Virus record (IMG/VR): IMGVR_UViG_3300031998_000001
Location: 301,064 to 365,063 of that record
Source: a virus
Lineage: Duplodnaviria; Heunggongvirae; Uroviricota; Caudoviricetes
Length of the DNA: 64,000 bases
Direction: 5' to 3' (one strand)
The notes beneath the pieces were generated by a model. The model worked only from the letters and a program-made list of their open reading frames with translations, ran no database searches and had not been told where the DNA came from. Made by a program: the position numbers and the translations under genes. Positions 5,094 to 50,981 of the stretch are shown piece after piece (position 1 is the first letter of the stretch; each line of letters starts with the position of its first letter).

Positions 5094-5337
5094 ACGGTTC
5101 AATAAAATTTAATAGATTTTATAAACAACCAATAAACCCAACAACGCCTATTGCATTATGGTTGCCTTAAACCATAAGCGTATAAATAATAAGGCGAACG
5201 AACAATAGGCAGCCGTACTGCCGAATTTAAGCCTGTGGACTGCCCGACTATGGATGACCGTTCAGCAATGAACCTAAAAAGTAGTGGCAGGATGAAGCAG
5301 GAAGGAGAAACTGATTTATTAGGTTTTTCCATACGGT
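5094..5337 (+). mobile_element. Non-autonomous IS607/TnpB-type element carrying omegaRNA-like copy 1 (5205-5337)
   Basis: ACGGT at both ends. It splits the inverted repeat AAGGGCGTATC (5081) / GATACGCCCTT (5341). The right part is shared with three other copies. Confidence 0.55.
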
Positions 5338-5358
5338 AGCGATACGCCCTTTAAAGGA

Positions 5359-5440
5359 GGGAGAGTCGCGTAGTGGCAATCGCACCTGACTGTAAATCAG
5401 GCGGGGCAACCCTTCGGAGGTTCGAGTCCTCCCTCTCCCA
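5359..5440 (+). tRNA. tRNA-Tyr(GTA)
   Basis: Cloverleaf with anticodon loop CTGTAAA and a long variable arm. Confidence 0.93.
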
Positions 5441-5575
5441 CGATTTGATTTTGTTTTGTGTGTAGAGGTGCTGTCGGACGACGACATTGCTCGCACAGCA
5501 CCTTTTTGGTTTTTAGGATTATATTTTTCATTTTATATTATTTTTTAATCTTCACACCTGTCGTTCCGACAGGTG

Positions 5576-5665
5576 GTCATCTTCTTCCAACGGCAGGAAA
5601 CCACCCCCGATGCCGAGCAGTCGGATAAAGGGGAGGAAATGCGGGTTCGATTCCCGCAGGTGGCA
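5576..5665 (+). ncRNA. tRNA-Glu-like RNA with an expanded anticodon arm
   Basis: Acceptor GTCATCT/AGGTGGC, D arm TTCC-AACGGCA-GGAA, T arm identical to tRNA-Glu at 9761; ~22-nt structured insert in place of the anticodon loop. Confidence 0.7.
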
Positions 5666-5695
5666 CAAACTTTTTAGATGTCAAGTAGGAGTATA

Positions 5696-5985
5696 ACGGG
5701 CTATGGTGAATTGCACTGAATCAAGAAAGCATAAAAAATCCAACAACAATGTCAAATAACAGGGTGTCTGCCTCTTAAAAGTTTCTTGAGCCGAAGGACA
5801 CCGTATGCGATGAAACCGTACGCCCAATGTACTCTGAAACTCGTCAAGTCAAACGCAAACGGGCTGGCAGGGCGGTGAGATGCACTGAATCAAGAAAAGA
5901 ATAATGGTACATACAGCAAGGGTGTCTGCCTCTTTAAAAGTTTTCTTGAGCCGAAGGACACCGAAGGCATCGAACCGCAAGCCTT
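5696..5985 (+). repeat. Tandem duplication of a ~130-nt pseudoknotted RNA motif (cores 5705-5803 and 5874-5963)
   Basis: Both copies read GGTGA..TGCACTGAATCAAGAAA-(variable)-AGGGTGTCTGCCTCT..AAAAG-TTTCTTGAGCCGAAGGACACCG. Confidence 0.8.
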
Positions 5986-6162
5986 ATCCGTAACACCAAG
6001 CACCCCCCTCACACCAGATTTCCGAAGTTACAAATTCGCTGTCTGGACGCGGTGGTGCGAAAAGTCAAGCGCAAAGTACAAGCGTGTACCAGTGGAACTC
6101 TGGCGTTCCGCAGAAATGCGGGGAATAAGCAAAGGCGGTACGATAACCCGCCCAACCCACCA

Positions 6163-6239
6163 CGCACCGTAGCATAATACTGGCAGTGCAAGGACGCTAA
6201 ACCCGTCCTGAAGTCCTCGTTCGAGTCGGGGCGGTGCGG
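6163..6239 (+). tRNA. Atypical tRNA (6-bp anticodon stem, loop CTAAACC, nominal AAA anticodon)
   Basis: Acceptor CGCACCG/CGGTGCG and T arm CCTCG-TTCGAGT-CGGGG; identity uncertain. Confidence 0.6.
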
Positions 6240-6245
6240 CAATAT

Positions 6246-6321
6246 TGCGGGGTAGAGCAGTTGGTAGTTCGTCAGGCTCATAACCTGAAGGTCGGCGGTT
6301 CGAGTCCGCCCCCCGCTACCA
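6246..6321 (+). tRNA. tRNA-Met(CAT), initiator-like
   Basis: Loop CTCATAA, 1:72 mismatch, encoded CCA. Confidence 0.9.
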
Positions 6322-6585
6322 TCTTATAACATTTTGGTAGAAAACCACCCAGACACGAAGAGTTAAATACCCGTGGAAGTCGGGCGCGTGTCGCCAGCAA
6401 CGGCACGCGGAGCGGGTGGTTATTAAAGAGCGCAACCGTTTTTAATTTCATAAAATTTCCGCCACCCTACGGGTTATCGTGGCGGTTTTTACACAAACGC
6501 ACATTGCCGACAACAGGTTTCGGACAAAATTTCCGAAGCGGAAGGCAATGTCGGAAACTGGATATAAGCAAATTACACATATCGT

Positions 6586-7146
6586 ATTGTTGTGGCATAC
6601 CGTATTACGGGTGCTGACAACTTTGCAGCGTGGAGGTGCAAGGCACTGGAAATTGTTGTGGCATACCGTATTACGGGTGCTGACAACTTCGGAGACAGCC
6701 ATTCGCAGATACCGTAATTGTTGTGGCATACCGTATTACGGGTGCTGACAACATATTATACAATTTCAATATATTGTGAATTATTGTTGTGGCATACCGT
6801 ATTACGGGTGCTGACAACACTCCCTGCTCACCACATACGAACATTACGATTGTTGTGGCATACCGTATTACGGGTGCTGACAACCATCAATGAATTGCTG
6901 AAAGTCTATTGTTTATTGTTGTGGCATACCGTATTACGGGTGCTGACAACTGCAAGAGCGACAAGTGGAATGATGAAATTGTTGTGGCATACCGCAGGGC
7001 GGATGCCGACAACTACCATAGGCGAGCAAATCTGGAAGTTATGGATTGTTGTGGCATACCGTATTACGGGTGCTGACAACATATACCTTTGCCGCTCGTT
7101 CAACAGTCAAATTGTTGTGGCATACCGTATTACGAGTACTGACAAC
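6586..7146 (+). CRISPR. CRISPR array 1: 9 repeats (36 bp ATTGTTGTGGCATACCGTATTACGGGTGCTGACAAC) and 8 spacers of 27-31 bp
   Basis: Repeats start at 6586, 6652, 6717, 6783, 6849, 6915, 6978 (variant), 7045 and 7111; the ends match the Cas-lambda repeat style ATTGTTGT...ACAAC. Confidence 0.98.
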
Positions 7147-7433
7147 CGAGGTGAAACGATATATCCTCGCGGGGCATCTGGGTCGAGCCGACTTGTTCGG
7201 CTTAACGAGAACGGCAGACAGCGTTCCAGCCCCGAAATCTCCCGATAGGGGGAAGCGCGTTGTGCGCAAACCATAAGACAGGTCTGCTCCCCAATCTGGA
7301 AAGGGGCTTTAAACGGAGACCAGCATCAGACGGACGGTAGGGCATCTGGTGAAACTTACAGCACGCCCCCAATTCGCAGGGGGAACTTTGCCATCGGCTC
7401 GCTGTGGTCGCGGTGCTCCGATTATCTACAAGT

Positions 7434-7469
7434 ATTGTTGTGGCATACCGTATCACGGGTGCTGACAAC
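7434..7469 (+). CRISPR. Orphan CRISPR repeat
   Basis: One mismatch to the consensus (TATCACGG), 287 bp after array 1. Confidence 0.9.
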
Positions 7470-7620
7470 TTACTTACGACCAAGGTCGATGTTGCCTTTC
7501 TTAAACCCGATTGCTTCGGGGAGTTGCCGTGAATAATGCAGTGGCTATGTTTCCGCAAAACGCACGGCGAGCCAAGAAATCAGTGGGATGGCAACACTCG
7601 CCTTAAATTATGAAAGCATA

Positions 7621-7694
7621 CTTCCCGTAGCCCAACTGGATAGAGCGTCTGCCCCCGGAGCAGAAGGCTGATGGTTCGAGTCCATTCGGGAAGA
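7621..7694 (+). tRNA. tRNA-Arg(CCG)
   Basis: Cloverleaf with loop CCCCGGA (C33 is atypical). Confidence 0.85.
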
Positions 7695-7736
7695 CACAGG
7701 CACGAAAGAACAATAACATAATATAACTTTTTGAAT

Positions 7737-7949
7737 ATGAACTGGAAGAAATGGACAGCAATCGGCATCACCGTAGCGGTGGTCGCAACAGGCATAATCC
7801 TTCACCTCGTACAGCCGACAATAAGTTTCGCTTGGACTGAACTTATGTGCGCCTGCGCATTCATAGCGGGTGGCGTATCGGGCTATCTCATCAAGGGCAA
7901 GATGCCAAATGACGGGAACAAGTACCAGTCGGTAGAGGGAAAGGAATAG
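7737..7949 (+). CDS. Small two-TM membrane protein inside the tRNA cluster
   Basis: Two hydrophobic segments and a basic N-terminus. Confidence 0.65.
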   Translation: MNWKKWTAIGITVAVVATGIILHLVQPTISFAWTELMCACAFIAGGVSGYLIKGKMPNDGNKYQSVEGKE

Positions 7950-8010
7950 GACAAAAAAAAAAGGACACCACCTCTGCGCATCGGGCGCGGAGGTCGGGTG
8001 TGCATATAAC

Positions 8011-8084
8011 GGTGTCTGTGGCGCAACTGGTAGCGCAGTGGATTGTGGTTCCAAAGGTTGCGAGTTCGAGCCTCGCCAGACACC
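8011..8084 (+). tRNA. tRNA-His(GTG)
   Basis: G-1/C73 pair, loop TTGTGGT. Confidence 0.93.
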
Positions 8085-8095
8085 CATTATCACAC

Positions 8096-8224
8096 GGAAG
8101 CATTGGATGGAAGTGCAAGTACCTACTGGGAACTTCCTGAAAGCGCAAGCAAAGTCGAGGTCTAACGGTACTTATGACCGAGGTAATGGCGGGGCGTTGG
8201 TTCGAGTCCAACACAATGTTTCCA
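8096..8224 (+). ncRNA. tRNA-like structured RNA (10-bp terminal stem plus T arm)
   Basis: GGAAGCATTG/CAATGTTTCC and GTTGG-TTCGAGT-CCAAC. Confidence 0.5.
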
Positions 8225-8231
8225 TTTACAC

Positions 8232-8318
8232 GGAGAGTTGCAGGAGTGGTAACTGGTCAGATTGCTAATCTGAAGCCCGCCTCTGGCGGCAGGGGTCCGA
8301 ATCCCTTACTCTCCGCCA
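8232..8318 (+). tRNA. tRNA-Ser(GCT)
   Basis: Loop TTGCTAA, long variable arm, GCCA end. Confidence 0.9.
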
Positions 8319-8485
8319 AGCAACATATTGTCGGGTAGTCGCGAATATCTTGGCGGTATGGTCGGAAAGAAGTGAATGCGATGCGATTGCGCAAGACCAT
8401 TGCGTTTAGAGTTCAAATCTCCTCTATGGTCTAACAAGGTCATATAGTTTAGTCTGGTTAAAACATTCTGACGCTTTTTTAAATC

Positions 8486-8557
8486 GCGGGAGTAGTTCAG
8501 TGGTAGAACATCGGCTTCCCAAGCCGAGGGTCGCGGGTTCGAGTCCCGTTTCCCGCT
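8486..8557 (+). tRNA. tRNA-Gly(CCC)
   Basis: Loop TTCCCAA, canonical cloverleaf. Confidence 0.93.
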
Positions 8558-8633
8558 CAACACATAGGCTGTGGACAAGGTGGGCGAAAGTATTTTTTCC
8601 ATAGTTTTACACCAACGCCCGCCTTTTCCTAAA

Positions 8634-8711
8634 CGCATTGGAGAGATAGAGGACTTGCCTTCTAAACAAGCAGTACGGGGGAACTTGCATCCGACCTCCG
8701 TTTCAATGCGG
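8634..8711 (+). pseudogene. Degenerate tRNA-Arg(TCT)-like element
   Basis: CGCATTG/CAATGCG acceptor and CTTG-CCTTCTAAA-CAAG arm; D and T arms are abnormal. Confidence 0.4.
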
Positions 8712-8790
8712 TAGAACTCCGCTCCCGTGACAGCGACGAATGATGCAATAGCGGTTCACGGGATACCTCAAGAAACTTCATTTTTCAAAA

Positions 8791-8863
8791 GCCACAATAG
8801 TTCAACTGGTAGAACGGCGGTATCGTAAACCGCAGGTTGCTGGTTCAATTCCTGCTTGTGGCT
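8791..8863 (+). tRNA. tRNA-Thr(CGT)
   Basis: Loop ATCGTAA. Confidence 0.9.
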
Positions 8864-9059
8864 CAACAATTTCGGGGGCTTGCAACGCTGCCACTGCGGG
8901 TGGAAGCCAGCGACAAGAACTTGTGTGAAGCCGAAACGCAGTCCTTCGGGAGAGGGGCGAAGGGGCAAGCGAGATGTGTCCCACTTTTTTAAAGTAACAG
9001 GCTTTAATAAATATTTATCATTCCCGAAAGGCTGTGCGGAACAGCCTCTCGGCTTTTAC

Positions 9060-9132
9060 GGGGATTTAGTTCAGTTGGTAGAACATCTGGTTCGCAATCA
9101 GAAGGTCGCGGGTTCGACTCCCGCAATCTCCA
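9060..9132 (+). tRNA. tRNA-Ala(CGC)
   Basis: Loop TTCGCAA and G3:U70 pair. Confidence 0.92.
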
Positions 9133-9138
9133 CACGGA

Positions 9139-9210
9139 TGGGCGATAGTGTAATTGGTAACACAACGGTCTCTGAAGCCGTTATAGCAGGTTCGAGTCCT
9201 GCTCGCCCAA
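9139..9210 (+). tRNA. tRNA-Gln(CTG)
   Basis: Loop CTCTGAA and U1-A72 pair. Confidence 0.92.
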
Positions 9211-9367
9211 CGACAAAAATCAATCATCTGTAGATTACATACTGTTTTTAGTTGTAATTGAAGCGACCGCCGTGAGGCGGACGCAGGCTGGCGGTTGGAT
9301 AATGACGCGTAAAGGCGGTTGTGAAAGCCAACGGAAAGCACTACATCGTTAAGTGCCAGCCACCATA

Positions 9368-9503
9368 ATAGGCAGCCGTACTGCCGAATACAAGCCTGTG
9401 GAGAACCCAACCGTGGATGACCGTTGCGTAAGCAACCTAAAAAGCGGTGGTTCTGCGAAGCAGGAAGGAAATGCCTAAATTTCATTAGGTTTCTCCATAC
9501 GGT
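9368..9503 (+). ncRNA. TnpB omegaRNA-like cassette, copy 2
   Basis: ATAGGCAGCCGTACTGCC...GAAGCAGGAA...CCATACGGT, shared by four copies. Confidence 0.65.
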
Positions 9504-9760
9504 ATGACAGCCTCTAACCGTAGCACATTACAAAACAAACGCTGTCATTACATAAATGGTCAGAGGCATAACGCCGAGCGCAGGTATGGTATGCGTTCAA
9601 GTCGCAGTCACGGAAGCCCCAGATAAAAATGGGAGGTGCTTGCGGTCAAGCGAGTGGTCAGCGGGCTTGCACTCGGTGTGGCAACAATGGTCGTTTCCGA
9701 ACTTACGACCATTCAAAAAGATAAGGTAGTGGCTTGGGAGGGAAAAGAAACTCTCGATAC

Positions 9761-9832
9761 GCTCCTTTCGTCTAACGGTCAGGACGCGAGATTCTCAATC
9801 TCGTAATGCGGGTTCGATTCCCGCAGGGAGTA
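9761..9832 (+). tRNA. tRNA-Glu(CTC)
   Basis: Loop TTCTCAA. Confidence 0.92.
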
Positions 9833-10039
9833 CAATGGCGAACACACGACAATCCAAACTGAAGGGGAACTGGAAAACCCTCGCTCCGAGATAACATCAG
9901 CGCAGAGAGGTTGGTGAGGCAACCGTAAAAGTAATCCTGTGTGCAAGCAAGAAGGAAGTTCGGGTTCAAGTCCCGATGAGGATTATTGTTGAAGAGGGAT
10001 ATGATTCAACCATAGCACTTATGGTGCTGTGCAAGGGTT

Positions 10040-10175
10040 ATAGGCAGCCGTACTGCCGAATACAAGCCTGTGGAGAACCCAACCGTGGATGACCGTTGCC
10101 TATGCAACCTAAAAAGCGGTGGTTCTGCGAAGCAGGAAGGAAATGCCTAAATTTCATTAGGTTTTTCCATACGGT
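10040..10175 (+). ncRNA. TnpB omegaRNA-like cassette, copy 3
   Basis: Nearly identical to copy 2 but with a different 3' flank. Confidence 0.65.
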
Positions 10176-10213
10176 ATCACTACTCGCGGTGGATGTGGAA
10201 ATAACCGCGATTT

Positions 10214-10287
10214 GGTCAGTTGGTGAAGTTGGTTATCATACCTGCCTGTCACGCAGGTGTTCACGAGTTCGAGTCTCGTACTGACCG
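10214..10287 (+). tRNA. tRNA-Asp(GTC)
   Basis: Loop CTGTCAC. Confidence 0.92.
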
Positions 10288-10446
10288 CAGACAAAGACAA
10301 AGAACGAGAGGACTTGTATGACTTGCAAATGTCACGGACTCAAACAAGAAAAGTTTATAGGCTATTAGAGGATGACTGTTTCTTTAATTTGTTTTCTTGT
10401 ACTGAAGGTCATCACTGCCGTGCCACCAAGCCGTGCAAGTCCAAAT

Positions 10447-10520
10447 GGTGCGTTAGTTCAGTTGGTTAGAATGCCAGCCTGTCACGCTGGAGGTCGCGGG
10501 TTCGAGTCCCGCACGCACCG
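10447..10520 (+). tRNA. tRNA-Asp(GTC), second divergent copy
   Basis: Loop CTGTCAC. Confidence 0.93.
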
Positions 10521-10555
10521 CAATAATCTGGATATAGGCAAATTACACATATCAT

Positions 10556-10780
10556 ATTGTTGTGGCATACCGTATCACGGGTGCTGACAATCAGGGGAAA
10601 GAGGTTCTGAACATTGATGAGATTGTTGTGGCATACCGTATTACGGGTGCTGACAACGGAAGTACGCGGAGTTCGCTCAATATGATGATTGTTGTGGCAT
10701 ACCGTATTACGGGTGCTGACAACGAACTACCAAAAGGCGGCAAAATGATAATTGTTGTGGCATACCGCAGGACGGATGCC
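10556..10780 (+). CRISPR. CRISPR array 2: 4 repeats (last one a truncated variant) and 3 spacers (30, 30, 27 bp)
   Basis: Repeats at 10556, 10622, 10688 and 10751; flanked by tRNA-Asp and tRNA-Arg. Confidence 0.97.
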
Positions 10781-10788
10781 ATCATACT

Positions 10789-10860
10789 GGCTTGATAGTT
10801 CAATGGATAGAACGGCGGTTTCCTAAACCGTAGATTCGGGTTCGATTCCCGGTCGGGCTA
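10789..10860 (+). tRNA. tRNA-Arg(CCT)
   Basis: Loop TTCCTAA. Confidence 0.9.
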
Positions 10861-10952
10861 CAAAAAATCCGCTTTCAAACTTGCGCACGCCTTTATGTCG
10901 GCTAAACGGGTGTTATGCGCAAGTCCCTGAAACGGGGCTTGCAAACGACTAC

Positions 10953-11023
10953 ACAGGTGTAGTTTAATGGTAGAATGGTGGTCTCCAAAACCATAGGTGA
11001 GGGTTCGATTCCTTCCACCTGTG
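10953..11023 (+). tRNA. tRNA-Trp(CCA)
   Basis: Loop CTCCAAA. Confidence 0.92.
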
Positions 11024-11193
11024 CAACAAAGCCCGCCGAAATGTGCGCACGAGTAGGCGGGAGCGTACCTATCCGAAGCAAACCGCAGTCCCCCAACAAA
11101 TATACACACTGCGGCTGTAAAGTTCGGACAGCGAATCGTATGTGTCGCTGGAAGTTCGGTGGCTCTTCGGTTTTATAAGCCACCACTTTTTTT

Positions 11194-11236
11194 CTGAAAT
11201 TCCTATTTATTAACTATATATTAGTGTTGGAAAGGA
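11194..11236 (+). promoter_or_regulatory. Phage promoter CTGAAA-N15-TATATATT upstream of the protease/Cas-lambda operon
   Basis: About 45 bp nearly identical to 51739-51780. Confidence 0.7.
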
Positions 11237-11255
11237 AACATTAAAGCGACAGGCT

Positions 11256-11768
11256 ATGTCAACAAAGATAAAAGTAACATTGGGATTGTTCAGCAAGGCT
11301 GACGACCGCATCTACACAAAGGACAGCATAGAGATGGCTGTCAAGTCATTCAACGAAAGGATAGAGGAAAACGGCTTCGTAACTGGAAGCCTCCGACACG
11401 GAAGCGAAGGGATACCAGTAAGCGGTTGGGAGGCGTTCACTATGCCGTCAAGGATAGAAACTTTGCTCAACGCGGAGGCACTCGAAAACGCAACGCACAA
11501 AATCACAAGTGCCAGCGCAAGCGAGGACGGAAAGAAAATCACTGGCGAGATAGAACTGCTCAACACCCCGAACGGAAGGCTCGTGAAGGATATGCTCTCG
11601 GACGGAGTGAAACTCTATATGTCGCCCCGCGTAATCATAGACGACACTGCGGACGACAGCGGCGAGAATGTCGAAAGGCTCGACAGCATAATGACATTCG
11701 ACATCACCGACACCCCGATATACGAAGACGGGGAGGAACTTGAGATAAACGCAAAATTCAACAGATAG
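11256..11768 (+). CDS. Prohead protease (T4 gp21-like) homolog, divergent
   Basis: RIY..., GSLRH, THKIT, GEIELLNTPNGRLVKDML..GVKLYMSPR and TFDI resemble the gp21/peptidase U9 pattern. Confidence 0.7.
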   Translation: MSTKIKVTLGLFSKADDRIYTKDSIEMAVKSFNERIEENGFVTGSLRHGSEGIPVSGWEAFTMPSRIETLLNAEALENATHKITSASASEDGKKITGEIELLNTPNGRLVKDMLSDGVKLYMSPRVIIDDTADDSGENVERLDSIMTFDITDTPIYEDGEELEINAKFNR

Positions 11769-11789
11769 AAATAATTAAAACAAACGGCA

Positions 11790-14186
11790 ATGGCACACAG
11801 AAAAAAGAAAGATGACGAAGCAACGCTATCGTACAAGTTCAAGGTAAAGGTCATAGAGGGCGACCTGACGGCAGACGACATAACGAAGTGTATCGCGGAA
11901 AACGCGGAGCAGGGCAACCATTTCTCCGAGTTCATACACAAGAACCTGACATCAAAGACAATAGGCGAGTTTGCAAGCCAACTTCCAGCCGAGAAGAGAC
12001 AGTTCGGCTACTACCAGTACGCAATCGGGGGCACGATGCCCGCCAAGAAGAACGCAAGCGACGAGGACAAGCCGAAGGGCGAACTCATAGACTGGTCGAA
12101 AAAGCCGTTCTATGTCCTTTTCTCGAAGGGATACAGCGCGACGCACGCGGTGAACCTGATTTTCAATGTTTACCTGAACTCCGAAGAGGGCAAGGCGTTT
12201 TCGGCAAAGAACTCGATGAACTTGTCAAAAAGCCAGTTCGCGTACAGCGGGTTCGTCCAGATTGTATGCGCCAACTACGCCTCGATGCTGGCGAACGCAC
12301 GCCCAGACAAGATAAAGTTCGAGGAGATAACCGAAGCCACCGATGACGGCACGAAGAAGATGCAGGTCGTAAGGGAGATGGCGGAAAGGTATCTGATGAA
12401 GCCAAAGAACTTCGCCAGCAGGATTGAATACCTCGAAGCAAACAACACGAAGGGCAAGTTCGACAAGACGATACAACGCCTGCGCCTGCTCCAGCCGTTC
12501 TTCGAGAAGAACGAGGAGAGCATAACCGAACTCTACTACGATTTGTCCGTCAAGGCACTTGAACACTCTGGACAATGCACATACAAGGGCGGACGCACAA
12601 TCTCCATACTGGAAATAGGCGACATAAGGATTTCACGCAAGGAAAACGCGAAGGGATACCTGCTCACAATTCCCATAAACAGGAAAAGTGTCGTGTTCGA
12701 CCTGTACGGAAGAAAGGACACGATAGGCGGGGACGGGCGCGACCTCATCGACATAATGAACACGCACGGGAGTTCGTTGCAGTTCACGGCAGACGAGAAC
12801 GACATATACCTGACGATTACAGCGACAAAGAATTTCATCAAGGAGAAGCCGACTTTCAACGAGGATACCGTTCTGGGCGGGGATGTCAACATCAAGCACT
12901 CGTACACGGTATTCAGCGCATCACCGAAGGACATTCCAGACTTCGTTAACTTCTACGAATATTTCGCGAAGGACGGCGAGATAATGAAACTCGCACCGAA
13001 GCCGATGTGGGACTACATCGTTGCCGCAGCAACGAAGTTCCTCACGATACTCCCCATAGAAACGCCAGCGATAAGCGCAACGGTATATGGGAAGAGGACG
13101 GAGGAAGGCATAAGCAGGGCTACATTCAGGGAAACGCAGAAACTCATAGCACTCGAAAAGGCAATCGAAAGGGTTATGAAGCAGGTTTTCGACAAGTACA
13201 ACGACGGCAAGCACCCGCTGGAAGCCATATACATCGGAAACGCAATAAAATACAGAAGGCTCATAAAGGGCTACCTCGCACAGAAAAAGAAATACTATTC
13301 CGCGCACAGCGAATACGACAAGGCGATGGGCTACACCGATGACGACACCGACAGGAAGGAGAATATGGACGAGAGACGCTTCGACGACTCAAAGAAGTTC
13401 AGGTACACCCCAGAGGCGCAGGCGTTGCTCGACACTATGCACACAATCGAGAAGAAGATTGTAGGATGCGTGTCCAACGCAATATCATACGCATACCACA
13501 AGTTCGATGAAAACGGCTTCAATGTGATTGCGCTCGAAAACCTGACCTCCGCCACATTCGCCAAGAAGTACAAGAGCGACAAGCCAGAGAGCATAAAGAA
13601 ACTGCTCAACTTCGACAAGTTGCTCGGCAAGACGCTCGATGAGGCGAAAGCCAGCAAGAGCATATCAAAGCACCCCAACTGGTATGAACTCGTAGCCGAT
13701 GAGAACGGATGCGTATCGGACATAAGGATAACCGACGAAGGTCAGTCCGCTACATACAGAAGTCTGGTGACCGAAACCATTATGAAGGTCTCCCACTTCG
13801 CCGAAACGAAGGACAGGTTCATAGGGCTTGCCAACTCTGGCAGGTTGCAGGTCGGACTCGTGCCGTCCCAGTACACTTCGTACATAGACTCCACCACGCA
13901 CACACTGTACGCGGTAATAGAGGACGGCAAGACCGTACTCGCACCGAAGGAGGTCGTAAGGGCTTCGCAGGAAAGGCACATAAACGGACTGAACGCGGAC
14001 TACAACAGCGCACTCAACCTGAAGTATATGATAACGGATGAGAATTTCAGGAAGACCTTCACATCCGAGACCAGCGCGGACAAGTTCGGATGGGGCAAGC
14101 CGATGTTCAGCCCGACCACCAGAAGTCAGGACGAAGTGTTCTCCGCGATAAAGAAAATCGGGGCGATAACCGTGCTGGAAGATTAG
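11790..14186 (+). CDS. cas12L: Type V CRISPR effector Cas-lambda (Cas12L)
   Basis: 798 aa. RuvC-I GGDVNIKH, RuvC-II IALENL, HFAETKDRFIGLANSG, VPSQYTS and RuvC-III VRASQERHINGLNADYNSALN match Cas-lambda; cognate-style arrays lie upstream. Confidence 0.93.
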   Translation: MAHRKKKDDEATLSYKFKVKVIEGDLTADDITKCIAENAEQGNHFSEFIHKNLTSKTIGEFASQLPAEKRQFGYYQYAIGGTMPAKKNASDEDKPKGELIDWSKKPFYVLFSKGYSATHAVNLIFNVYLNSEEGKAFSAKNSMNLSKSQFAYSGFVQIVCANYASMLANARPDKIKFEEITEATDDGTKKMQVVREMAERYLMKPKNFASRIEYLEANNTKGKFDKTIQRLRLLQPFFEKNEESITELYYDLSVKALEHSGQCTYKGGRTISILEIGDIRISRKENAKGYLLTIPINRKSVVFDLYGRKDTIGGDGRDLIDIMNTHGSSLQFTADENDIYLTITATKNFIKEKPTFNEDTVLGGDVNIKHSYTVFSASPKDIPDFVNFYEYFAKDGEIMKLAPKPMWDYIVAAATKFLTILPIETPAISATVYGKRTEEGISRATFRETQKLIALEKAIERVMKQVFDKYNDGKHPLEAIYIGNAIKYRRLIKGYLAQKKKYYSAHSEYDKAMGYTDDDTDRKENMDERRFDDSKKFRYTPEAQALLDTMHTIEKKIVGCVSNAISYAYHKFDENGFNVIALENLTSATFAKKYKSDKPESIKKLLNFDKLLGKTLDEAKASKSISKHPNWYELVADENGCVSDIRITDEGQSATYRSLVTETIMKVSHFAETKDRFIGLANSGRLQVGLVPSQYTSYIDSTTHTLYAVIEDGKTVLAPKEVVRASQERHINGLNADYNSALNLKYMITDENFRKTFTSETSADKFGWGKPMFSPTTRSQDEVFSAIKKIGAITVLED

Positions 14187-14214
14187 CGCATATTATTCTC
14201 ATATCTAAAATTGG

Positions 14215-14246
14215 AAGGACACCTGCGGACGCGGGTGTCCTTTTTT
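14215..14246 (+). terminator. Intrinsic terminator after cas12L
   Basis: AAGGACACC...GGTGTCCTTTTTT. Confidence 0.8.
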
Positions 14247-14261
14247 CTTAAAATGCCAATT

Positions 14262-14269
14262 TATAAATA
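14262..14269 (+). promoter_or_regulatory. T4-type late promoter TATAAATA (representative; also 4435, 5181, 19007, 30736, 49833, 50793, 53629, 59669, 61728 and minus strand 30639, 37406, 39733, 41379, 51725)
   Basis: Exact T4 gp55 late consensus recurring in AT-rich gaps upstream of genes on both strands. Confidence 0.75.
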
Positions 14270-14325
14270 ATATATAACTTATATTTTACTTTTCATTTTT
14301 GTTTAACTAAAAAGAGATAGACTAT

Positions 14326-39898: not shown

Positions 39899-41290
39899 TT
39901 AAAAACCGTTTAAACTCTTTAATATTAGGCTCGCCTTTGAAAAGCACCTCGAAAACCTTGTCCCGCAACGGTCGAAGGAAAGCCTGTATCTGACTCCAGA
40001 CTTTTTTAACGCATCATACGCTTCCAGAAGGCTCGTGCCGTCGTCCAGACCAAATTCTTCCAACGACTTGGAGATGGACGCTCTGTAGGCTTCATAATCT
40101 GGAAACACTATGTTGCGCTTAATATCTTTTTTCTTTTCTATGTATTGCTGGTTGAACTCATATCCACGCCTGCCTATTTCGATTGATGCCAGAACCATAT
40201 CGGGAAGGTTCAAATGCCTAAACACGAAGTTGCCGACAAACGAACTGTAGTTCGGCTTGACCTTCAGGAACTTTATGTCGAATATGTTGCAACGCTTCTG
40301 CAAGTTAAGTTCAAGGCTGTTCCTGCACCAGTTATTATTGACAAGACGGTTGTATTTCTTTCCGTGCCCACAATCCTTGCCCCGTATATCCAAGTCCTCG
40401 GTTGCAAACATCTCGCAGCGGTAGTGCAGGCATATACGGATTAACTTCTTCGACACCTCGTATGCCTCGTGCAGACGCTTATCCGCCACATATATTTTCT
40501 TCGGGTCGGACGAATCTGTCTTGGACTTCGATAGTTGTTGTGCAATGTCGTTTATCGGCTTTACCGAAAATACACCCTGCCTTATGACATTATAATCGGC
40601 TTCGCCCTTCCAGTCAACGACTGACCATCCTATGTAGTTCGGGTTCATATCAATAGCCATAACTCGGTTTTGTATAGCGTTGTCGCGCCTGTAGTGCTCG
40701 ACCTGCGTTTCGTCGAACGACAGATATACATATTCCGAATCCAACTTGTATGTTATGGGCGTTGCCTTTGCGCACTGGAGTTCATACAGTTTCTCAAGCG
40801 TGCGCCTGCGCTTGCCGTATATGCCGATTAGATTTAGCGTATAATGGCTGTTCTTGTTAATCTGGAATGTTATTGACTGGAAATCATTGTTTATGCGGAA
40901 CTTGCGGTTGGCAAAGCAGTTCGCCTCGCCCACGACCAATAGCGGTGATAACCGTTTGTCATCAAACGCTTCCTTCGTTATCAATCCCTTGCAACGGCGG
41001 ATGAAGTTTCCACGCCCGCCGAATATGTATTTGGCATCTGGGTTGTCGGAACTCTTTATCGACTTGAAGATTGCACTCGCCTCCTGTTCCGCGCACGAAG
41101 CCATATAACTGTCCATAAGCCCGACATTATTTAACTCGAACTTTATCGCGTCCCTAATCCGCTTGCCGTTCCAGCCGCCGATGACACGGTTGTACGCGAA
41201 GCGGAGCGCGGACGAATACTGCCGCCTGCACTCACGGATAAAAGCCTTCGCTTCATCGCTCGCCTCGTATTTCAACTTCAATGTTATCAT
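39899..41290 (-). CDS. tnpB: TnpB-like RuvC protein (IS200/IS605/IS607 accessory family), no transposase nearby
   Basis: YSSALRFAYNR, FGGR, AIDMNP (RuvC-I), ATEDL (II), VKPNYSSFVG and PDMVLASIEIGRRG (III). Confidence 0.8.
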   Translation of the reverse strand: MITLKLKYEASDEAKAFIRECRRQYSSALRFAYNRVIGGWNGKRIRDAIKFELNNVGLMDSYMASCAEQEASAIFKSIKSSDNPDAKYIFGGRGNFIRRCKGLITKEAFDDKRLSPLLVVGEANCFANRKFRINNDFQSITFQINKNSHYTLNLIGIYGKRRRTLEKLYELQCAKATPITYKLDSEYVYLSFDETQVEHYRRDNAIQNRVMAIDMNPNYIGWSVVDWKGEADYNVIRQGVFSVKPINDIAQQLSKSKTDSSDPKKIYVADKRLHEAYEVSKKLIRICLHYRCEMFATEDLDIRGKDCGHGKKYNRLVNNNWCRNSLELNLQKRCNIFDIKFLKVKPNYSSFVGNFVFRHLNLPDMVLASIEIGRRGYEFNQQYIEKKKDIKRNIVFPDYEAYRASISKSLEEFGLDDGTSLLEAYDALKKSGVRYRLSFDRCGTRFSRCFSKASLILKSLNGF

Positions 41291-41825: not shown

Positions 41826-41892
41826 TTCCTATCCTGTTATATATTGACTATAAATTGGAAGGAAAGCAGGTCGCCCCGCCTTCCCGCCGTGT

Positions 41893-45828: not shown

Positions 45829-46136
45829 TGAAATATATTTAAGATACTATATATTATTTATAAATAACACCGACTGGGACTTTTTTTGAAAAAAAATCAA
45901 AAAAGTTTTGGCGGTTTCAAAAATAAGCGTTTCCTTTGCAGCGGAAAATTAAAGTCAACGAAGCAAACGATGTAAACGAGGTCTGATTTGTCAATTTATA
46001 AATAGAAGTGAAGAAGTAGATTTTCAATGTTCCAATAGGTGAAGGAACTATTGTTAAAGATATAAAGTCGCTCGGCTGTGCGTTCACCTCCAGACGAAAG
46101 TCTTGGGCACAGTCGGGTGGCTTATTTTTTACTACA

Positions 46137-48125
46137 ATGTCAGACGACAGCAAAAGAATAAGCATACGAAACACCCGCACCTGCGGGCTGAACCCGAAAA
46201 CCAGACGGAACGAGGAGATATACGAGTCTGGCGACGGGCGGAAGTTCTTTGCTTCCGATATGCTTATATCAAGGTCGGACATAACCAACGGAACATACTT
46301 AATAACCAAGCAGGTAAAGAATAGCGAGAACATATGCTCGGAGAGGACGCACCACGCCAACAAGCCGGGCATAATACAATTCGCGAACAATGTAGGCTCT
46401 ATGGACTTCGGTGCGCAGAAGGACACCGACAGCATATACAGGTACAAGTGCAAGAAAGGCGAAAGCCTGCTCGACGCTTGGAGGGCGAACGCCACATACC
46501 TGTCAACGAGCACTGGCACTACCCACGAAACCCGACAGGTCATAGTTCTCGACATAGACGACAACTACACAATGGGGCAGGACGGCTTTGCCTTCGGCAC
46601 AAACACCCTGTCCGCAGTCAAGTCGAGAGTATCCGCGAAAATCTCCGAGATTGCGGACGCGGGTCTGCCCCTGCCGAGCGCAGCGAGCATAAACACGCAC
46701 AACGGTCACTACCAACTCCACTGGTATATGGACAAGCCAGTGCGGAAGACCTCGTACAAGTACGACCGCAGGAACGACCAGTGCGACGAACTCTCGGCTG
46801 GGACGGCGAGCGGGGACGGCTACATCATAGCCACCCACATCCTCAACATTATATTCGGCGGTGACATAGGCTACACGGGCTGGAGGTGCAGGAACATATA
46901 CTGCACCCACCTCGAACAGTACGCCAACTACAAGGTCTGTGATGACGGAAGGCTCGAAAGGGTGAGGAGGGGGACGGAGTTCATACAGCACGACACCCCG
47001 AAACTCTACGCCCGCATATTCACCGTGGCGACGGACGGGCGGGGCGAGAGCAGGGTTCGCGTGAACTGGGGCGGGAACGACCGCTGGGACACCATACTCG
47101 GCAAGTGGGAAGGATACTGGGCGGAGGCGGTGGCTCTCCACGAGGCGTATTCGGGAGAGCCGAAGCAAAGCGACAGAGACGCAAAGCCGACCGAAAGCAA
47201 GAGCAGGAACACGGAAAGGAAGCCGACGGAACTCTCGGACTTGGCGCGGGCACGCTCGGAGATATACGGTCGGGACTTCAGGAAGATAAGCGAGATATAC
47301 TCCACAAACAAGGTCGAGGCTATATACGGGGCGTACGCCAATGACCACATCGGACGCAACGCATACTGGATAAAGTCCCCGAAACTCGTAAGGCTTCTCG
47401 AACCAGACATAACGCAGGAGAAGGCGTACTCGATAATCAGGCAGGCATACGGAAGGCTCATAGACGCGGGGGGCGGAAAACTCAACGGCACGCAGTCGTC
47501 CGAGCCGTTCACCGATAAGGACATCAGGAAGGCGTTTGTTCAGGGCTGGAAATATGCAACGGACTGCGACATACACAGGGGCTGGACTGACGAGCAGAGG
47601 AAAAGGAGTTCGGAAGTCAACCGCATAAAATATGAATTAAGATGCCTTGCTGTATATAACTATTTGATATACAATAAGATAGACATATCAAAGGGCGTAA
47701 GTGTCCTGATGGTGAAGAAACTGTCAGGTGTATTCAGCAAGTGCGAACGGACAATAAGGAAGATGCTCAAGGAGTGCTCAATCGAAACAAGCAGGAAGCG
47801 GAGATACCGCGTATGCCAGAAAGCCACAATAGGCACAAGGCAGGCTAAATCTTATATGAGGCTGTATTCGAGCGTCAAGGCTCACCTTGACGAGAGCAAC
47901 TGCGGAAAGGACACCGCAAGGCGCACATTCGAGAGTTTCATTATGGAGGACGACACGGACTTCTGCAACAGGCGCAATATGTTCCTGTGTACCGTGTCGA
48001 ACGCATTAGCCCAGCAGGACAGTCCGAAGCCGACTGCAACGGCTTACAATATGTATGCGTGCGGGGCATACGGGTATGAAGCGGTGGCTACGGCTGGCGG
48101 ACACGCCCCTCCAGACACTCGGTAG
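46137..48125 (+). CDS. ColE2-type replicase / AEP primase-like protein
   Basis: IVLDID, LPLPS..INTHNGHYQLHW, GGDIGYTG..RN, PriCT-like GRN and a basic C-terminus. Confidence 0.65.
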   Translation: MSDDSKRISIRNTRTCGLNPKTRRNEEIYESGDGRKFFASDMLISRSDITNGTYLITKQVKNSENICSERTHHANKPGIIQFANNVGSMDFGAQKDTDSIYRYKCKKGESLLDAWRANATYLSTSTGTTHETRQVIVLDIDDNYTMGQDGFAFGTNTLSAVKSRVSAKISEIADAGLPLPSAASINTHNGHYQLHWYMDKPVRKTSYKYDRRNDQCDELSAGTASGDGYIIATHILNIIFGGDIGYTGWRCRNIYCTHLEQYANYKVCDDGRLERVRRGTEFIQHDTPKLYARIFTVATDGRGESRVRVNWGGNDRWDTILGKWEGYWAEAVALHEAYSGEPKQSDRDAKPTESKSRNTERKPTELSDLARARSEIYGRDFRKISEIYSTNKVEAIYGAYANDHIGRNAYWIKSPKLVRLLEPDITQEKAYSIIRQAYGRLIDAGGGKLNGTQSSEPFTDKDIRKAFVQGWKYATDCDIHRGWTDEQRKRSSEVNRIKYELRCLAVYNYLIYNKIDISKGVSVLMVKKLSGVFSKCERTIRKMLKECSIETSRKRRYRVCQKATIGTRQAKSYMRLYSSVKAHLDESNCGKDTARRTFESFIMEDDTDFCNRRNMFLCTVSNALAQQDSPKPTATAYNMYACGAYGYEAVATAGGHAPPDTR

Positions 48126-48901
48126 CGTCCCGCAAGGCAACCAGAAACAAAATAAATCCAGACATTGCGCCGAGAACCACCGCTCGGCTTTCGGTGTATA
48201 TGCCCGTATCGGAAAAACGCTCCCGTCCGTGCGGAAGAATGTCCAGCGCGGTGCAAAACCACGCGACTGCGGTGTAAATTTTCCGCCACGCACCGCCGAA
48301 ATTCCGCCCGACCGACATCCGCGAGCACTCCAGACCGCACAGTATGGAAACCCGTGTATGAAATATGTAGGTGGACTTGCCTGACCATAAACCTCCACCG
48401 CTACGCTGGTAGCCGTCCTACCGACTGGATACCGCTTGGGCTATAGAACTATATGCTGGCTTGGACTTTACAGCGTATGGTAGTTCCCGAACATACGCCC
48501 ATACGGTCTGCCGATACTGCCGATATGTCATCGCAGTCCCTGAAAGGCTATGTCGAAAGAGCCGATGGCTGATAATAAATAACAAATGATAAAGCGAAGC
48601 AACAGCCCTGCCCCAGACAGCGCAGGGGGCGGATTTGACGAAAAGGCGGGCGGTCGGGGCACGCGACCGTCAGGGAAGCGTGCTTCGCCCCCGCGCTTTT
48701 TGACGGGCGGGTGCAGGTAGCGACAGCGAAAGTGCTTTCCTCGGAGAGGATAAAAAGCACTTGAGCGGGAACGAAGCGTCCCGAACGACCAGCGGGAGTG
48801 AGTGGCGCAAGAGCGAAGTGGTAAGCGGACGGAAGCCGCCCGAAAGCGGAGTGGACAGACACCCGCATATAAATAACGCATATATAACTATTATTCGGAA
48901 T

Positions 48902-49573
48902 ATGGATATTGCTGGCATTCGGAAACAGGAAGACGGACTGCCCTGCTTCATAGTCGAGACAGGTCGGGAAGGGAACACGGACTTCATCGTGTTCAGGGGC
49001 GGATACGAAACACGCCACGATTACAACTGGCTCGTTGATGCCGAACAGATTGATATGTGGTTCAACGGTTCGGTGTGGCAGGACGGCATACCGAAGCAGA
49101 TGTGGGTGTCCCGCAAGCCAGTCCCGATTTCCGAAGCCGAGTATTCCTCTCTGGTCAGGGAGATACAGAAGGGCACGAGGATGCTCTCCGTGTTCAACGC
49201 GACCTGCGATGCGCTCTCGAAGAGGTACGGGAGGAATGTCGTAAAGCCAGACGAGTTTCCGTCCGACGAGGGTTGCTTCGTGTACCTGCGCAGGGATGTG
49301 CTTCCGTACCTTGTCGGCTGGGGGCTGTTCAGGGGGCGGATTACGGTAGCCGATGCGAAGGGTATGCGGTGGGACGCGGAAGCCGAGCAGTTCGCAGTCC
49401 CAGTCCATCCAGAGGGCGAAGGGGGCGTGTTCAAGTTCCTCCGACTGCCCGTGAAAGTCCCCGAAGCAATATGGGACAGGCTGTATTCGGAAGCCGAGAG
49501 GCTCATATCCGACAGGGAGGATTTTATGGAGAGATGTCGGAAGTTGGTTGAAGGTAAGAAGAGCCGTTTCTGA
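48902..49573 (+). CDS. Hypothetical protein
   Basis: ATG after an AT-rich TATAAATA leader. Confidence 0.65.
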   Translation: MDIAGIRKQEDGLPCFIVETGREGNTDFIVFRGGYETRHDYNWLVDAEQIDMWFNGSVWQDGIPKQMWVSRKPVPISEAEYSSLVREIQKGTRMLSVFNATCDALSKRYGRNVVKPDEFPSDEGCFVYLRRDVLPYLVGWGLFRGRITVADAKGMRWDAEAEQFAVPVHPEGEGGVFKFLRLPVKVPEAIWDRLYSEAERLISDREDFMERCRKLVEGKKSRF

Positions 49574-49865
49574 AATCTTCGGGGATTCCCCATATATTAT
49601 GGTTGAAAGGAAAGATTGCGATATGAACAATACGGATATGGGGCTTGAACCCTACGAGAGAATGGAGAACGGAAGGCGGAGAGGGCTTCGTGCGAGGCGA
49701 TGCACCGCCTGCCTGCCGAACAGGAACAATGTGCGCAAGTGCAAGTCGTGCCGAGATTTCCCGTACGGAGAGTGCGGTGTTACGAACCCGAAGCACCCAG
49801 CCTGCCCGAAGCACAGGTATTAGTTGCGGGTTTATAAATAATGATAGAATATATTTGAATTTGAT

Positions 49866-50321
49866 ATGATACACATCAGGAGATTGAACGAGATGGCTGA
49901 AGCCGACCAGACGCTCACCCCGATACAGCGGGAGGTGATGGCTGAACTCAAGGAGAGGTACGGCATAGATACGGGCAATATCACTTGGGGGAGCGACAAC
50001 TACTTCTGCAACGATGCCGACGGTTGCAACGGGAGCGTATATAAAAGTGAAGAGGAGGCGCGGAGGTCGATATTAAGCCCGACTGGTGACAACCACCAGA
50101 ACGCCCTTGATTTTGTTGAGGACGCAATGGGGGATGAAGAATGGATTGGCTTTCTGGAGAATTGCGGTATCAACCGCAGGACTGCGGAGAAAATCATATC
50201 GGGGGGCAACTGGAAGAAGGTCGTTGAGATTGTGGTGAAGAACGAAGGCGCAAAGTTCTTTTTGAGCACATATTCGGGCGGTACATTTGAACTCGGCAAC
50301 GGCTATATTGTTTATTTCTAA
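49866..50321 (+). CDS. MxHI-tag family protein
   Basis: Starts MIHIRRLNEM; late promoter at 49833. Confidence 0.7.
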   Translation: MIHIRRLNEMAEADQTLTPIQREVMAELKERYGIDTGNITWGSDNYFCNDADGCNGSVYKSEEEARRSILSPTGDNHQNALDFVEDAMGDEEWIGFLENCGINRRTAEKIISGGNWKKVVEIVVKNEGAKFFLSTYSGGTFELGNGYIVYF

Positions 50322-50335
50322 AAATAATAATCACG

Positions 50336-50716
50336 GTGGAAAGTTACAAGAATTACATTGGGAAGAAAACGGAGGTCGATAACCGCGTCAAGGCTATTAT
50401 GAACTGGCTCAACGAAAGACCGAAGGACGACTACATTGCGGTAAGGCAGAGCAGGACATTGTTGCAGTCCGTGTTCGAGGAGTTTATGAAGTATTGCGAC
50501 GACCTGTTCGATGCAAGGGGCGTGCTCCGCGAGGTCGCCGAGGGGCGCAGGCACTTCAGCCACGCGCAGAGGCTTATGTCCGACTACAGGGGCGACTACA
50601 AGGAGGTGGACGATGCCTTCTTCCGCTTCGAGTGTACGGACTTCTCCACTGGCATCGAGTATCCCCAGCCGTTCTATGTGAGGCGACCAGCGGAATTTCA
50701 CGGGCGCGTAATATAG
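50336..50716 (+). CDS. Hypothetical protein
   Basis: 126-aa ORF. Confidence 0.6.
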   Translation: MESYKNYIGKKTEVDNRVKAIMNWLNERPKDDYIAVRQSRTLLQSVFEEFMKYCDDLFDARGVLREVAEGRRHFSHAQRLMSDYRGDYKEVDDAFFRFECTDFSTGIEYPQPFYVRRPAEFHGRVI

Positions 50717-50835
50717 GCTGTATAGCCGATAGACGCGCTTTATAGGCTGTACAGCCGATATTTCGGTTTCCCGAAATATAAATAAGATATAATATAAATA
50801 ATATGCGGAATGTATGCGGCAAGACATTCCAGATT

Positions 50836-50981
50836 ATAGGCAGCCGTACTGCCGAATACAAGCCTGTGGAGAATCCAACAGCGGATGACCGTTGCTTATG
50901 CAACCTAAAAAGCGGTGGTTCTGTGAAGCAGGAAGGAGGAACTGGCGAAGAACATAGTTTTTCATAGGTTTTCCATACGGT
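50836..50981 (+). ncRNA. TnpB omegaRNA-like cassette, copy 4
   Basis: Same scaffold as 5205/9368/10040; TATAAATA upstream and terminator downstream. Confidence 0.65.

What the first reader, a model, noticed from the sequence alone, without database searches (positions are those of the whole stretch)
5205..50981. Four stand-alone TnpB omegaRNA-like cassettes, each with a different guide: a possible domesticated multi-guide system
Seen: a 133-146-nt element occurs at 5205, 9368, 10040 and 50836, with no tnpB attached. Its stems covary between copies (CTGCC/GGCAG vs AGAACC/GGTTCT; GTTCA/TGAAC vs GTTGC/GCAAC), which points to selection on RNA structure. The loop of the 5' hairpin GGCAG-CCGTA-CTGCC is complementary to the terminal TACGG, and homology stops right after TACGGT. 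The 3' flanks all differ: AGCGATACGCCC, ATGACAGCCTCT, ATCACTACTCGC and TAAGGCTTATTT. Known: TnpB omegaRNAs derive from the IS right end and close with a pseudoknot just before the guide. Inference: copies 2-4 lack a left end, and they sit in the tRNA transcript or behind TATAAATA. They look like expressed guides for a TnpB acting in trans, a second RNA-guided system beside Cas-lambda.
Basis: partly seen in the sequence, partly recalled or inferred. Interest (0 to 1): 0.82.

Follow-up and report, generated by a model that had tools for sequence, protein, structure and literature searches.

The report
Gene-less TnpB guide RNAs in phage
A giant gut phage carries four leftover guide-RNA modules from a jumping gene that lost their nuclease gene; they likely borrow the nuclease from four intact copies elsewhere in the genome and would cut sister phages lacking the insertion, which makes them selfish leftovers rather than a new immune system.

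Summary
Observation confirmed; interpretation half right. The four 132-145-nt repeats are TnpB omegaRNA scaffolds: the 388-kb phage holds four more copies, each ending an intact tnpB ORF (IS607-like, GG ends, no serine tnpA). Structure and pseudoknot covary across 29 copies. But they are deletion derivatives, not a domesticated guide set. Copy 1 keeps a left end; copy 4 keeps the parent's promoter and 5' leader; copy 3 keeps two left-end bases after GGG. Copy 3's guide is the flank of its insertion site: a sister-phage contig lacks the insert and rejoins at the GG, and the interrupted motif is whole in other phages. No credible outside target was found. Unusual: copies 2-3 have no left end, gene-less copies favour tRNA clusters (8 of 10 vs 7 of 27), vary between strains, and a distant phage without detectable tnpB has one at the copy-3 site with two compensatory pair changes. 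Most likely they persist as guide-only homing passengers using TnpB in trans (inferred, untested). Gene-less omegaRNA elements are in print (PATEs), and this scan noted a similar relic in another phage genome.

The parts
5083..5085 (+). GGG directly before the left end of copy 1; predicted TAM and GG core
   Evidence: same position as GGG before the left ends of the four full copies
5086..5204 (+). left end of copy 1, TATAAATA motif (5181-5188) and about 14 nt of tnpB tail
   Evidence: 70% over 97 nt to the left end of full copy b; left-end HMM E 0.017 among ten upstream regions; tail similarity
5205..5336 (+). omegaRNA scaffold, copy 1 (2-4 differences in 99 columns from full copies b and d)
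   Evidence: RAGATH-18 32.3 bits, below the gathering score 44.9, at 5232-5303
5337..5356 (+). predicted guide of copy 1; tRNA-Tyr starts at 5359
   Evidence: position after the GG end; no target found
9368..9502 (+). omegaRNA scaffold, copy 2; no left end detected
   Evidence: also present in relative L043 and run X16
9503..9522 (+). predicted guide of copy 2
   Evidence: position; empty site not found; one probably chance 20-nt match in L111
9991..10037 (+). 5' half of a conserved non-coding motif interrupted by copy 3, ending in GGG (predicted TAM)
   Evidence: AAGAG and AAGG shared with uninterrupted motifs in L034-L036, L038
10038..10039 (+). two bases (TT), probable remnant of the left end
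   Evidence: left ends of full copies d and e start GG then TT; inference
10040..10174 (+). omegaRNA scaffold, copy 3
   Evidence: absent from X16 record 11 and X14 record 6
10175..10213 (+). guide of copy 3 = 3' half of the interrupted motif; tRNA-Asp starts at 10214
   Evidence: 84% mean column identity in five rows
50761..50835 (+). upstream part of copy 4: weak left-end likeness, two TATAAATA motifs, 5' leader of a full element
   Evidence: X16 record 2 matches 50791-50830 (4 differences) inside sequence like full copy b; left-end score expected 0.15 times by chance
50836..50980 (+). omegaRNA scaffold, copy 4
50981..51000 (+). predicted guide of copy 4
   Evidence: position; X16 record 1 joins 50760 to 50999 and lacks 18 of these bases (one contig, depth 2.5)
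51011..51043 (+). terminator-like hairpin after copy 4 (may serve the convergent genes)
11790..14186 (+). Cas-lambda relative beside CRISPR arrays; considered as partner, not part of the element
   Evidence: E 9e-98 to Cas-lambda2, 3e-79 to Cas-lambda
39899..41290 (-). uncharacterised 463-aa ORF of another repeated element; considered as partner, not part
   Evidence: no Pfam, NCBIfam or PDB match; its 3' end has no scaffold

Best explanation
The four repeats are intact omegaRNA scaffolds left when IS607-like tnpB elements lost their gene, and they likely persist as guide-only passengers: TnpB from the four intact copies would load them and cut the matching empty site in co-infecting sister phages, so that repair would copy the short cassette. 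Shown: identity with the 3' ends of four intact tnpB genes, conserved fold and pseudoknot, deletion anatomy of copies 1 and 4, an empty copy-3 site in a sister phage, strain-variable presence. Inferred: transcription from the tRNA cluster or the element's own TATAAATA promoter, loading of the copy 2-4 scaffold variant by this genome's TnpB, a GGG TAM, cleavage, and spread by homing without transposase.
For: Four tnpB ORFs of 414-422 aa end in the scaffold, keep the three RuvC acidic motifs and pass NF040570 (297-302 bits, cut-off 100). Across 29 copies 97.6% of cells pair, 21 of 35 pairs change on both sides, 0 of 500 shuffles reach this, and the pseudoknot has a CG-to-AU swap in 5 rows. The ten gene-less rows break 0-2 of 35 pairs each, like the tnpB rows (0-3). 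Empty copy-3 allele: X16 record 11 runs 9060-10023, 11 letters, then 10173-10472. The motif is uninterrupted in 4 of 6 loci. A phage with 47% capsid identity has a gene-less copy at the same motif, 88 of 99 columns identical to copy 3, and no TnpB by three searches; against copy 2 it has two double-compensatory changes among 9 differences (simulated P 0.003). No serine transposase in the genome and no left end on copies 2-3, so transposition cannot explain current spread. IS607 TnpB works equally with omegaRNA in trans (10.1101/2023.11.20.567912, fig. S10C legend).
Against: No expression, binding or cleavage was shown; RNA-library contigs hold scaffold pieces only weakly (X19 151 nt at depth 2 with the copy-3 flank; X21 157 nt) and may be DNA. 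Copies 2-4 differ from the genome's own tnpB-linked scaffolds at 17-33 of 99 columns, so cross-loading is unproven. The compensatory changes in the distant copy may predate gene loss, and the count of broken pairs alone is not significant (P 0.14). That phage has no detectable TnpB, so the RNA would have no partner there unless co-infected. The X16 empty allele is one contig, has 11 letters where an exact excision gives 12, and its TAM could not be read. Empty sites for copies 1 and 2 were not found; the copy-4 joint removes most of the guide too. No tnpB-bearing allele was seen at the sites of copies 2-4.
Confidence: 0.6

Rival explanations
1. Inert relics: the copies are recent deletion remnants or ordinary mini-elements that survive in non-coding tRNA spacers only because they are harmless; the fold is inherited, not selected.
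For: Copies 2-4 and the L043 copies differ by only 1-9 of 99 columns, too few to test selection; single broken pairs occur in 5 of 7 rows of that group. Gene-less scaffolds are common by-products: L007 (tnpA start fused to tnpB tail), L026 (left end plus tail), L010 (same 3' flank as tnpB-bearing L020), and 13 of 14 loci of one bacterial MAG have no tnpB hit. This genome also holds an internally deleted copy of another element. Sister strains have lost copy 3 with its motif (X14).
Against: Every gene-less copy keeps the 5' hairpin and the terminal pseudoknot partner, with deletions stopping at or just before the hairpin. Two compensatory double changes in the distant gene-less copy. Same site occupied in phages with 47% capsid identity while close sisters are empty.
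Confidence: 0.25
2. Domesticated multi-guide system: the phage keeps several expressed guides for a trans-acting TnpB or Cas-lambda to attack host or unrelated phage DNA.
For: Different flanks, intact folds, position in the tRNA/CRISPR region, TATAAATA before copies 1 and 4 (87 + 39 such motifs in the genome against 7.6 expected per strand). One perfect 20-nt match to the copy-2 guide with GGG upstream in phage contig L111.
Against: Copy-3 guide is the flank of its own insertion site; the tnpB-bearing copies also have different flanks, so flank variety is expected of any such element. Copy number varies between strains. L111 encodes a helicase whose 55 phage matches infect Proteobacteria and shares no other DNA or spacer match with this phage. 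No nuclease-dead or specialised partner: all four TnpBs keep the catalytic motifs.
Confidence: 0.08
3. The short cassette is itself the mobile unit and is copied to new places near tRNA ends by gene conversion or an RNA-derived route, not by repeated insertion and deletion of full elements.
For: Seven gene-less rows group together apart from the genome's own full copies (support 86/59, with one long-branch tnpB row inside). All start within a few bases of the same point. L043 and X6 carry an extra copy 4 nt after tRNA-Gln.
Against: Copy 3 sits after GGG + TT and its flank is the target, as for a true IS607-type insertion; copy 4 carries the parent's leader; a tnpB-bearing element with the same stem variant exists (L041, 11-16 differences), so a lost parent subfamily explains the grouping.
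Confidence: 0.07

Closest known systems
IS607-family tnpB elements and their omegaRNA (CboIStron/CboTnpB; 10.1101/2023.11.20.567912, passages seen)
   Same: GG core at both ends, G-rich TAM (TGGG there, GGG inferred here), scaffold ending in CGG, terminal pseudoknot, guide from the 3' flank, activity in trans; a relative (L011) has a MerR-HTH/resolvase tnpA next to the same tnpB.
   Different: No group I intron, no serine tnpA in this genome; proteins score below the NF038280 IS607_TnpB cut-off (162-175 vs 350); four of eight copies have no gene; host is a jumbo phage.
RAGATH-18-derived reRNA of IS607 TnpB (PMC11061315, passages and section 10 seen; Rfam RF03064)
   Same: Core of copy 1 aligns to the whole RAGATH-18 model (E 0.0036); TnpB d matches PDB 8IAZ at E 3e-50.
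   Different: Score 32.3 is below the gathering score 44.9; copies 2 and 3 were not listed; scaffold is about 135-145 nt rather than 187.
PATE / gene-less IS200/IS605 mini-elements that carry omegaRNA (10.1101/2023.03.14.532601, passages seen)
   Same: No protein gene, omegaRNA retained, proposed to be used in trans by TnpB from other elements; copy 1, L026 and the bacterial MAG copies fit.
   Different: PATEs keep both ends for TnpA; copies 2 and 3 have no detectable left end, are IS607-like, and sit in a phage tRNA cluster.
Phage homing endonucleases and intronless homing (review PMC13565253, passages seen)
   Same: Works like it, by inference: cut the co-infecting genome that lacks the insert, repair from the carrier.
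   Different: Specificity would come from an RNA in the insert and the nuclease from another locus; not demonstrated.
TldR and other domesticated TnpB systems (10.1101/2023.11.30.569447, search listing and abstract start only)
   Same: TnpB-derived guide RNA in a phage.
   Different: No nuclease-dead partner, no fixed outside target, elements still look mobile and strain-variable.

Membership tests
TnpB omegaRNA | Scaffold forms the 3' end/right end of a tnpB element | tested here: met
   4 of 8 genome copies end a tnpB ORF
TnpB omegaRNA | Conserved fold with pseudoknot closing just before the guide | tested here: met
   21 of 35 pairs covary; pseudoknot 99.3% paired with one covarying pair
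TnpB omegaRNA | Guide equals the flank of the insertion site | tested here: met
   copy 3 only and full copy a by frame; not found for copies 1 and 2, unclear for 4
TnpB omegaRNA | Expressed, bound by TnpB, directs cleavage | not testable with these tools
   only weak RNA-library contigs
IS607 family | GG dinucleotide at both element boundaries, G-rich target | tested here: met
   copy e ends GA and lies at the assembly break
IS607 family | Serine-recombinase tnpA | tested here: inconclusive
   absent from this genome (record 93% complete); present beside a 68%-identical tnpB in L011
IS607 family | TnpB passes NF038280 IS607_TnpB cut-off | tested here: not met
   162-175 bits vs 350; also below NF038281 (342-356 vs 425)
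RAGATH-18 (RF03064) | Score at or above gathering threshold | tested here: not met
   32.3 vs 44.9 bits for copy 1; no hit
PATE/MITE with omegaRNA | Both element ends, no ORF | tested here: inconclusive
   met for copy 1, partial for copy 4, not met for copies 2 and 3
Domesticated multi-guide system | Guides match targets other than the insertion site | tested here: not met
   own genome, fetched loci, viral scans for copies 1-2; host genome not searched, copy 4 not scanned in collections
Domesticated multi-guide system | Fixed loci and a dedicated, non-mobile partner protein | tested here: not met
   presence varies between strains; the four TnpBs lie in element ends at unrelated sites

The most novel reading that the evidence does not exclude
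End-less, gene-less omegaRNA cassettes of about 140 nt are a minimal RNA-only homing parasite of jumbo phages: embedded in tRNA transcripts that supply their expression and ends, they hijack any compatible TnpB in the cell, cut sister phages at conserved non-coding sites, and so cross between phage genera without nuclease gene, transposase or left end, doubling as a weapon in phage-phage competition.
Probability: 0.25. Interest if true: 0.75.

Novelty: new variant of a known kind. Interest (0 to 1): 0.42.

Why it matters
Gene-less elements that carry an omegaRNA are known, so the basic object is not new. If the end-less copies are kept by homing in trans, they are about the smallest possible RNA-guided selfish element and a natural case of one TnpB serving several separate guides, a step often invoked on the way to CRISPR-like systems. 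The set also gives a compact IS607-like TnpB with eight natural guides, an inferred GGG TAM and real empty alleles, so the idea can be tested directly in E. coli.

Tried and rejected
Rfam at gathering level: tRNAs only; loci: tRNAs only, so the motif interrupted by copy 3 has no Rfam name. Empty site of copy 2: upstream pattern 0 hits, downstream pattern 1 unrelated hit. Guide scans: copy 1, 2 loci, both ending by 18 nt; copy 2, 18 loci, 17 without a full match, L111 followed up and set aside as probably chance; my rough chance estimate is about 0.3% per guide, so it stays unexplained. Cas-lambda spacers (11 extracted) match neither the element nor L111's record. Partner 39899-41290 rejected: own ends, no scaffold; Atlas gave only hypothetical clusters. 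A probability line printed (no change in invariant columns) does not apply, since 3 of 16 changes fall in such columns; not used. Missing cover of copy 1 or 2 in X6 and X14 is not taken as absence. Eight of 25 genome-collection hits are chance matches without scaffold. No complex or structure prediction was run.
Full report
Setting. The window is 301064-365063 of a 387,654-bp virus record, 93% complete by the tool's estimate, with a Gp23-type capsid gene, 15 tRNA genes, CRISPR arrays and a Cas-lambda relative. Runs holding the region are mostly bovine, goat and other gut metagenomes. The host was not determined; a Bacteroidota host is my inference from Cas-lambda and from a related element in Prevotella phage Lak-C1.

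Observation. The four copies are real and at the stated places. Each folds better than shuffles (z -2.3 to -3.3). The stem swaps and the loop/terminus complementarity are as described.

Identity. The genome holds eight distinct copies by BLAST, nhmmer and a covariance model (one is split across the record's ends, so its 3' flank rests on that join). Four (genome 86720, 196024, 379394, 387523; a, b, d, e) overlap the end of tnpB ORFs of 414-422 aa that pass NF040570 and keep the three RuvC acidic motifs. So the repeat is the omegaRNA/right end of a tnpB element, and the cognate protein is encoded four times. The family is IS607-like: ends at GG, a serine-resolvase tnpA beside a 68%-identical tnpB in L011, a sub-threshold RAGATH-18 match. 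The proteins do not reach the NCBIfam IS607_TnpB cut-off, so I file it as IS607-like. No serine tnpA was found in this genome; a Y1 tnpA fragment of the other family lies at genome 375844-376107.

Structure. In 29 copies from this and other phages (chosen by me from full-length hits, leaving out exact duplicates, partial and very divergent ones) a six-helix model with the terminal pseudoknot gives 97.6% paired cells and 21 of 35 pairs with double changes, above all 500 shuffles and all slid controls. The pseudoknot itself covaries in 5 rows. The model came from these sequences and the rows are related, so this shows the fold of the family, not selection on the gene-less copies.

Anatomy of the four copies. 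Copy 1 is a two-ended mini-element of about 250 bp: GGG, a left end like that of copy b, TATAAATA, a few bases of tnpB tail, and a scaffold 2-4 changes from b and d. Copy 4 is preceded by TATAAATA and a leader that matches, in run X16, sequence flanked by b-like element DNA: a promoter-to-omegaRNA deletion. Copies 2 and 3 have no left-end signal within 400 nt. Copy 3 follows GGG + TT, as the left ends of d and e begin.

Guides. Copy 3's 3' flank is half of a conserved non-coding motif. Of 6 loci found with the flank pattern, 4 hold the motif uninterrupted, with AAGG just before it, and 2 are one distant phage with a gene-less scaffold in the same place. In run X16 a 1444-nt contig carries copy 2, runs to 10023, has 11 other letters and resumes at the GG at 10173: an empty allele, one letter short of an exact excision, letters not shown. 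X14 lacks the whole motif with copy 3; X6 and relative L043 have copy 3. For full copy a, removal at the GG restores a 281-codon frame; for b and d the test was not informative. For copy 4, one low-depth X16 contig joins 50760 to 50999, removing promoter, scaffold and most of the guide, which is not a clean empty site. For copies 1 and 2 no empty site was found. Searches for other targets found none in the own genome or with GG in fetched loci apart from the scan hits themselves. One viral contig matches all 20 nt of the copy-2 guide after GGG, but its helicase resembles those of proteobacterial phages and nothing else is shared; I treat it as probably chance. Host genomes were not searched.

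Distribution. The scaffold pattern hit 27 viral loci. Gene-less copies occur in L007, L010, L015/L032, L025 and L026; L030 is partial and was left out. Counting distinct events, including this genome and L043's extra copy, 8 of 10 gene-less and 7 of 27 tnpB-bearing copies lie within 400 nt of a tRNA gene (distances; Fisher P 0.006; my grouping, events not independent, one locus truncated). Strains differ: L043 (98.7% over 2.9 kb) and X6 have an extra gene-less copy beside tRNA-Gln. Copies 2-4 and these relatives group together, 17-33 columns from the genome's own full copies and 11-16 from tnpB-bearing L041 (weak support). G001, 96% complete, capsid 47% identical, has one scaffold and no TnpB by three searches. 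Its copy has two double-compensatory changes among 9 differences from copy 2 (simulated P 0.003; broken pairs alone P 0.14); they could predate gene loss. In bacterial genomes, 14 of 25 hits come from one MAG with a related scaffold, 13 of them without a tnpB hit, so gene-less omegaRNA elements are not rare.

Expression. RNA-library contigs X19 (151 nt, depth 2, with the copy-3 5' flank) and X21 (157 nt) hold scaffold pieces. Contigs cannot show strand or ends and DNA can be present: a weak hint only.

Mechanism. Shown: what the repeats are, their fold, deletion anatomy for copies 1 and 4, guide = insertion flank for copy 3, strain variation. Inferred: full elements inserted at GGG, lost tnpB (and in copies 2-3 the left end), and the remaining RNA is transcribed with the tRNA cluster or from the element's promoter, loaded by TnpB from a, b, d or e, and directs cutting of empty alleles in co-infecting sisters, with repair copying the cassette. 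Self-cutting would be avoided because the resident site reads CGG, not GGG, before the guide, as reported for CboTnpB (passage). I give this 0.6, inert relics 0.25, domestication 0.08, direct copying of the short form 0.07.

Prior knowledge. Meers et al. (10.1101/2023.03.14.532601, passages) state that PATE elements often encode omegaRNAs that need TnpB in trans. Zedaveinyte et al. (10.1101/2023.11.20.567912, passages) give the GG core, TGGG TAM, pseudoknot and in-trans activity for IS607. Ren et al. (PMC11061315, passages and section 10) describe RAGATH-18 reRNA. Nety et al. (PMC10278001, passages) show 5' processing by TnpB. A review (PMC13565253, passages) frames OMEGA systems as homing endonucleases. 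Six full-text searches listed no paper on end-less omegaRNA cassettes in phage tRNA clusters; I read only listings for most hits, subscription papers are not in the library, and bioRxiv supplements, which may list such elements, were not seen. TATAAATA as a T4-type late promoter is recalled, not tested.

Verdict. Real feature, correctly recognised as omegaRNA, but best read as deletion derivatives of a selfish element, some possibly still homing, not as a second defence system. New variant of a known kind; interest 0.42.

Noticed in passing
window 9991-10213; L034:1050-1122, L035:1460-1536, L036, L038: A conserved non-coding motif of about 70 nt, shared by phages of very different size and often near tRNAs, has no Rfam match; copy 3 interrupts it.
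   Followed up: partly
window 9286-9365: Structured RNA directly before copy 2, closing stem followed by ACCA like a tRNA end, with a compensatory pair change in L043; not called by ARAGORN or Rfam.
   Followed up: partly
window 39899-41290 (-); genome 206096-207484 and 84257-84577: A second repeated element with a 463-aa ORF that looks TnpB-like by eye but has no Pfam, NCBIfam or PDB match; two full copies (87%) and one internally deleted copy.
   Followed up: partly
window 6586-7469, 10556-10779, 11790-14186: Cas-lambda relative with CRISPR repeats split into two arrays and a lone repeat, interleaved with tRNA genes; sister runs show rearrangement at the lone repeat.
   Followed up: no
L111:301-322 (G004): Perfect 20-nt match to the copy-2 guide after GGG, in a helicase gene of an apparently proteobacterial phage; probably chance, unexplained.
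   Followed up: yes
genome 239193-240377 and 375844-376107 (-): A fifth, divergent TnpB (38% to d) without this scaffold, and a Y1 tnpA fragment.
   Followed up: partly
L010 (scaffold 2433-2576) with L019, L020: In this lineage an 11-nt repeat occurs both before the tnpB start and before the scaffold, and L010 reads as the deletion between them: a possible route for clean gene loss.
   Followed up: partly
L069-L093 (contigs DYQK01...): One bacterial MAG holds at least 14 loci with a related scaffold ending in TTCAC, nearly all without tnpB.
   Followed up: no
window 4921-5025; L015: tRNA-like genes with long inserts, missed by ARAGORN (Rfam tRNA 34.1 bits; similar ones in L015).
   Followed up: no
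genome 1-127 and 387530-387654: The record starts and ends inside one scaffold copy, so the assembly may have broken or been joined at this repeat.
   Followed up: partly
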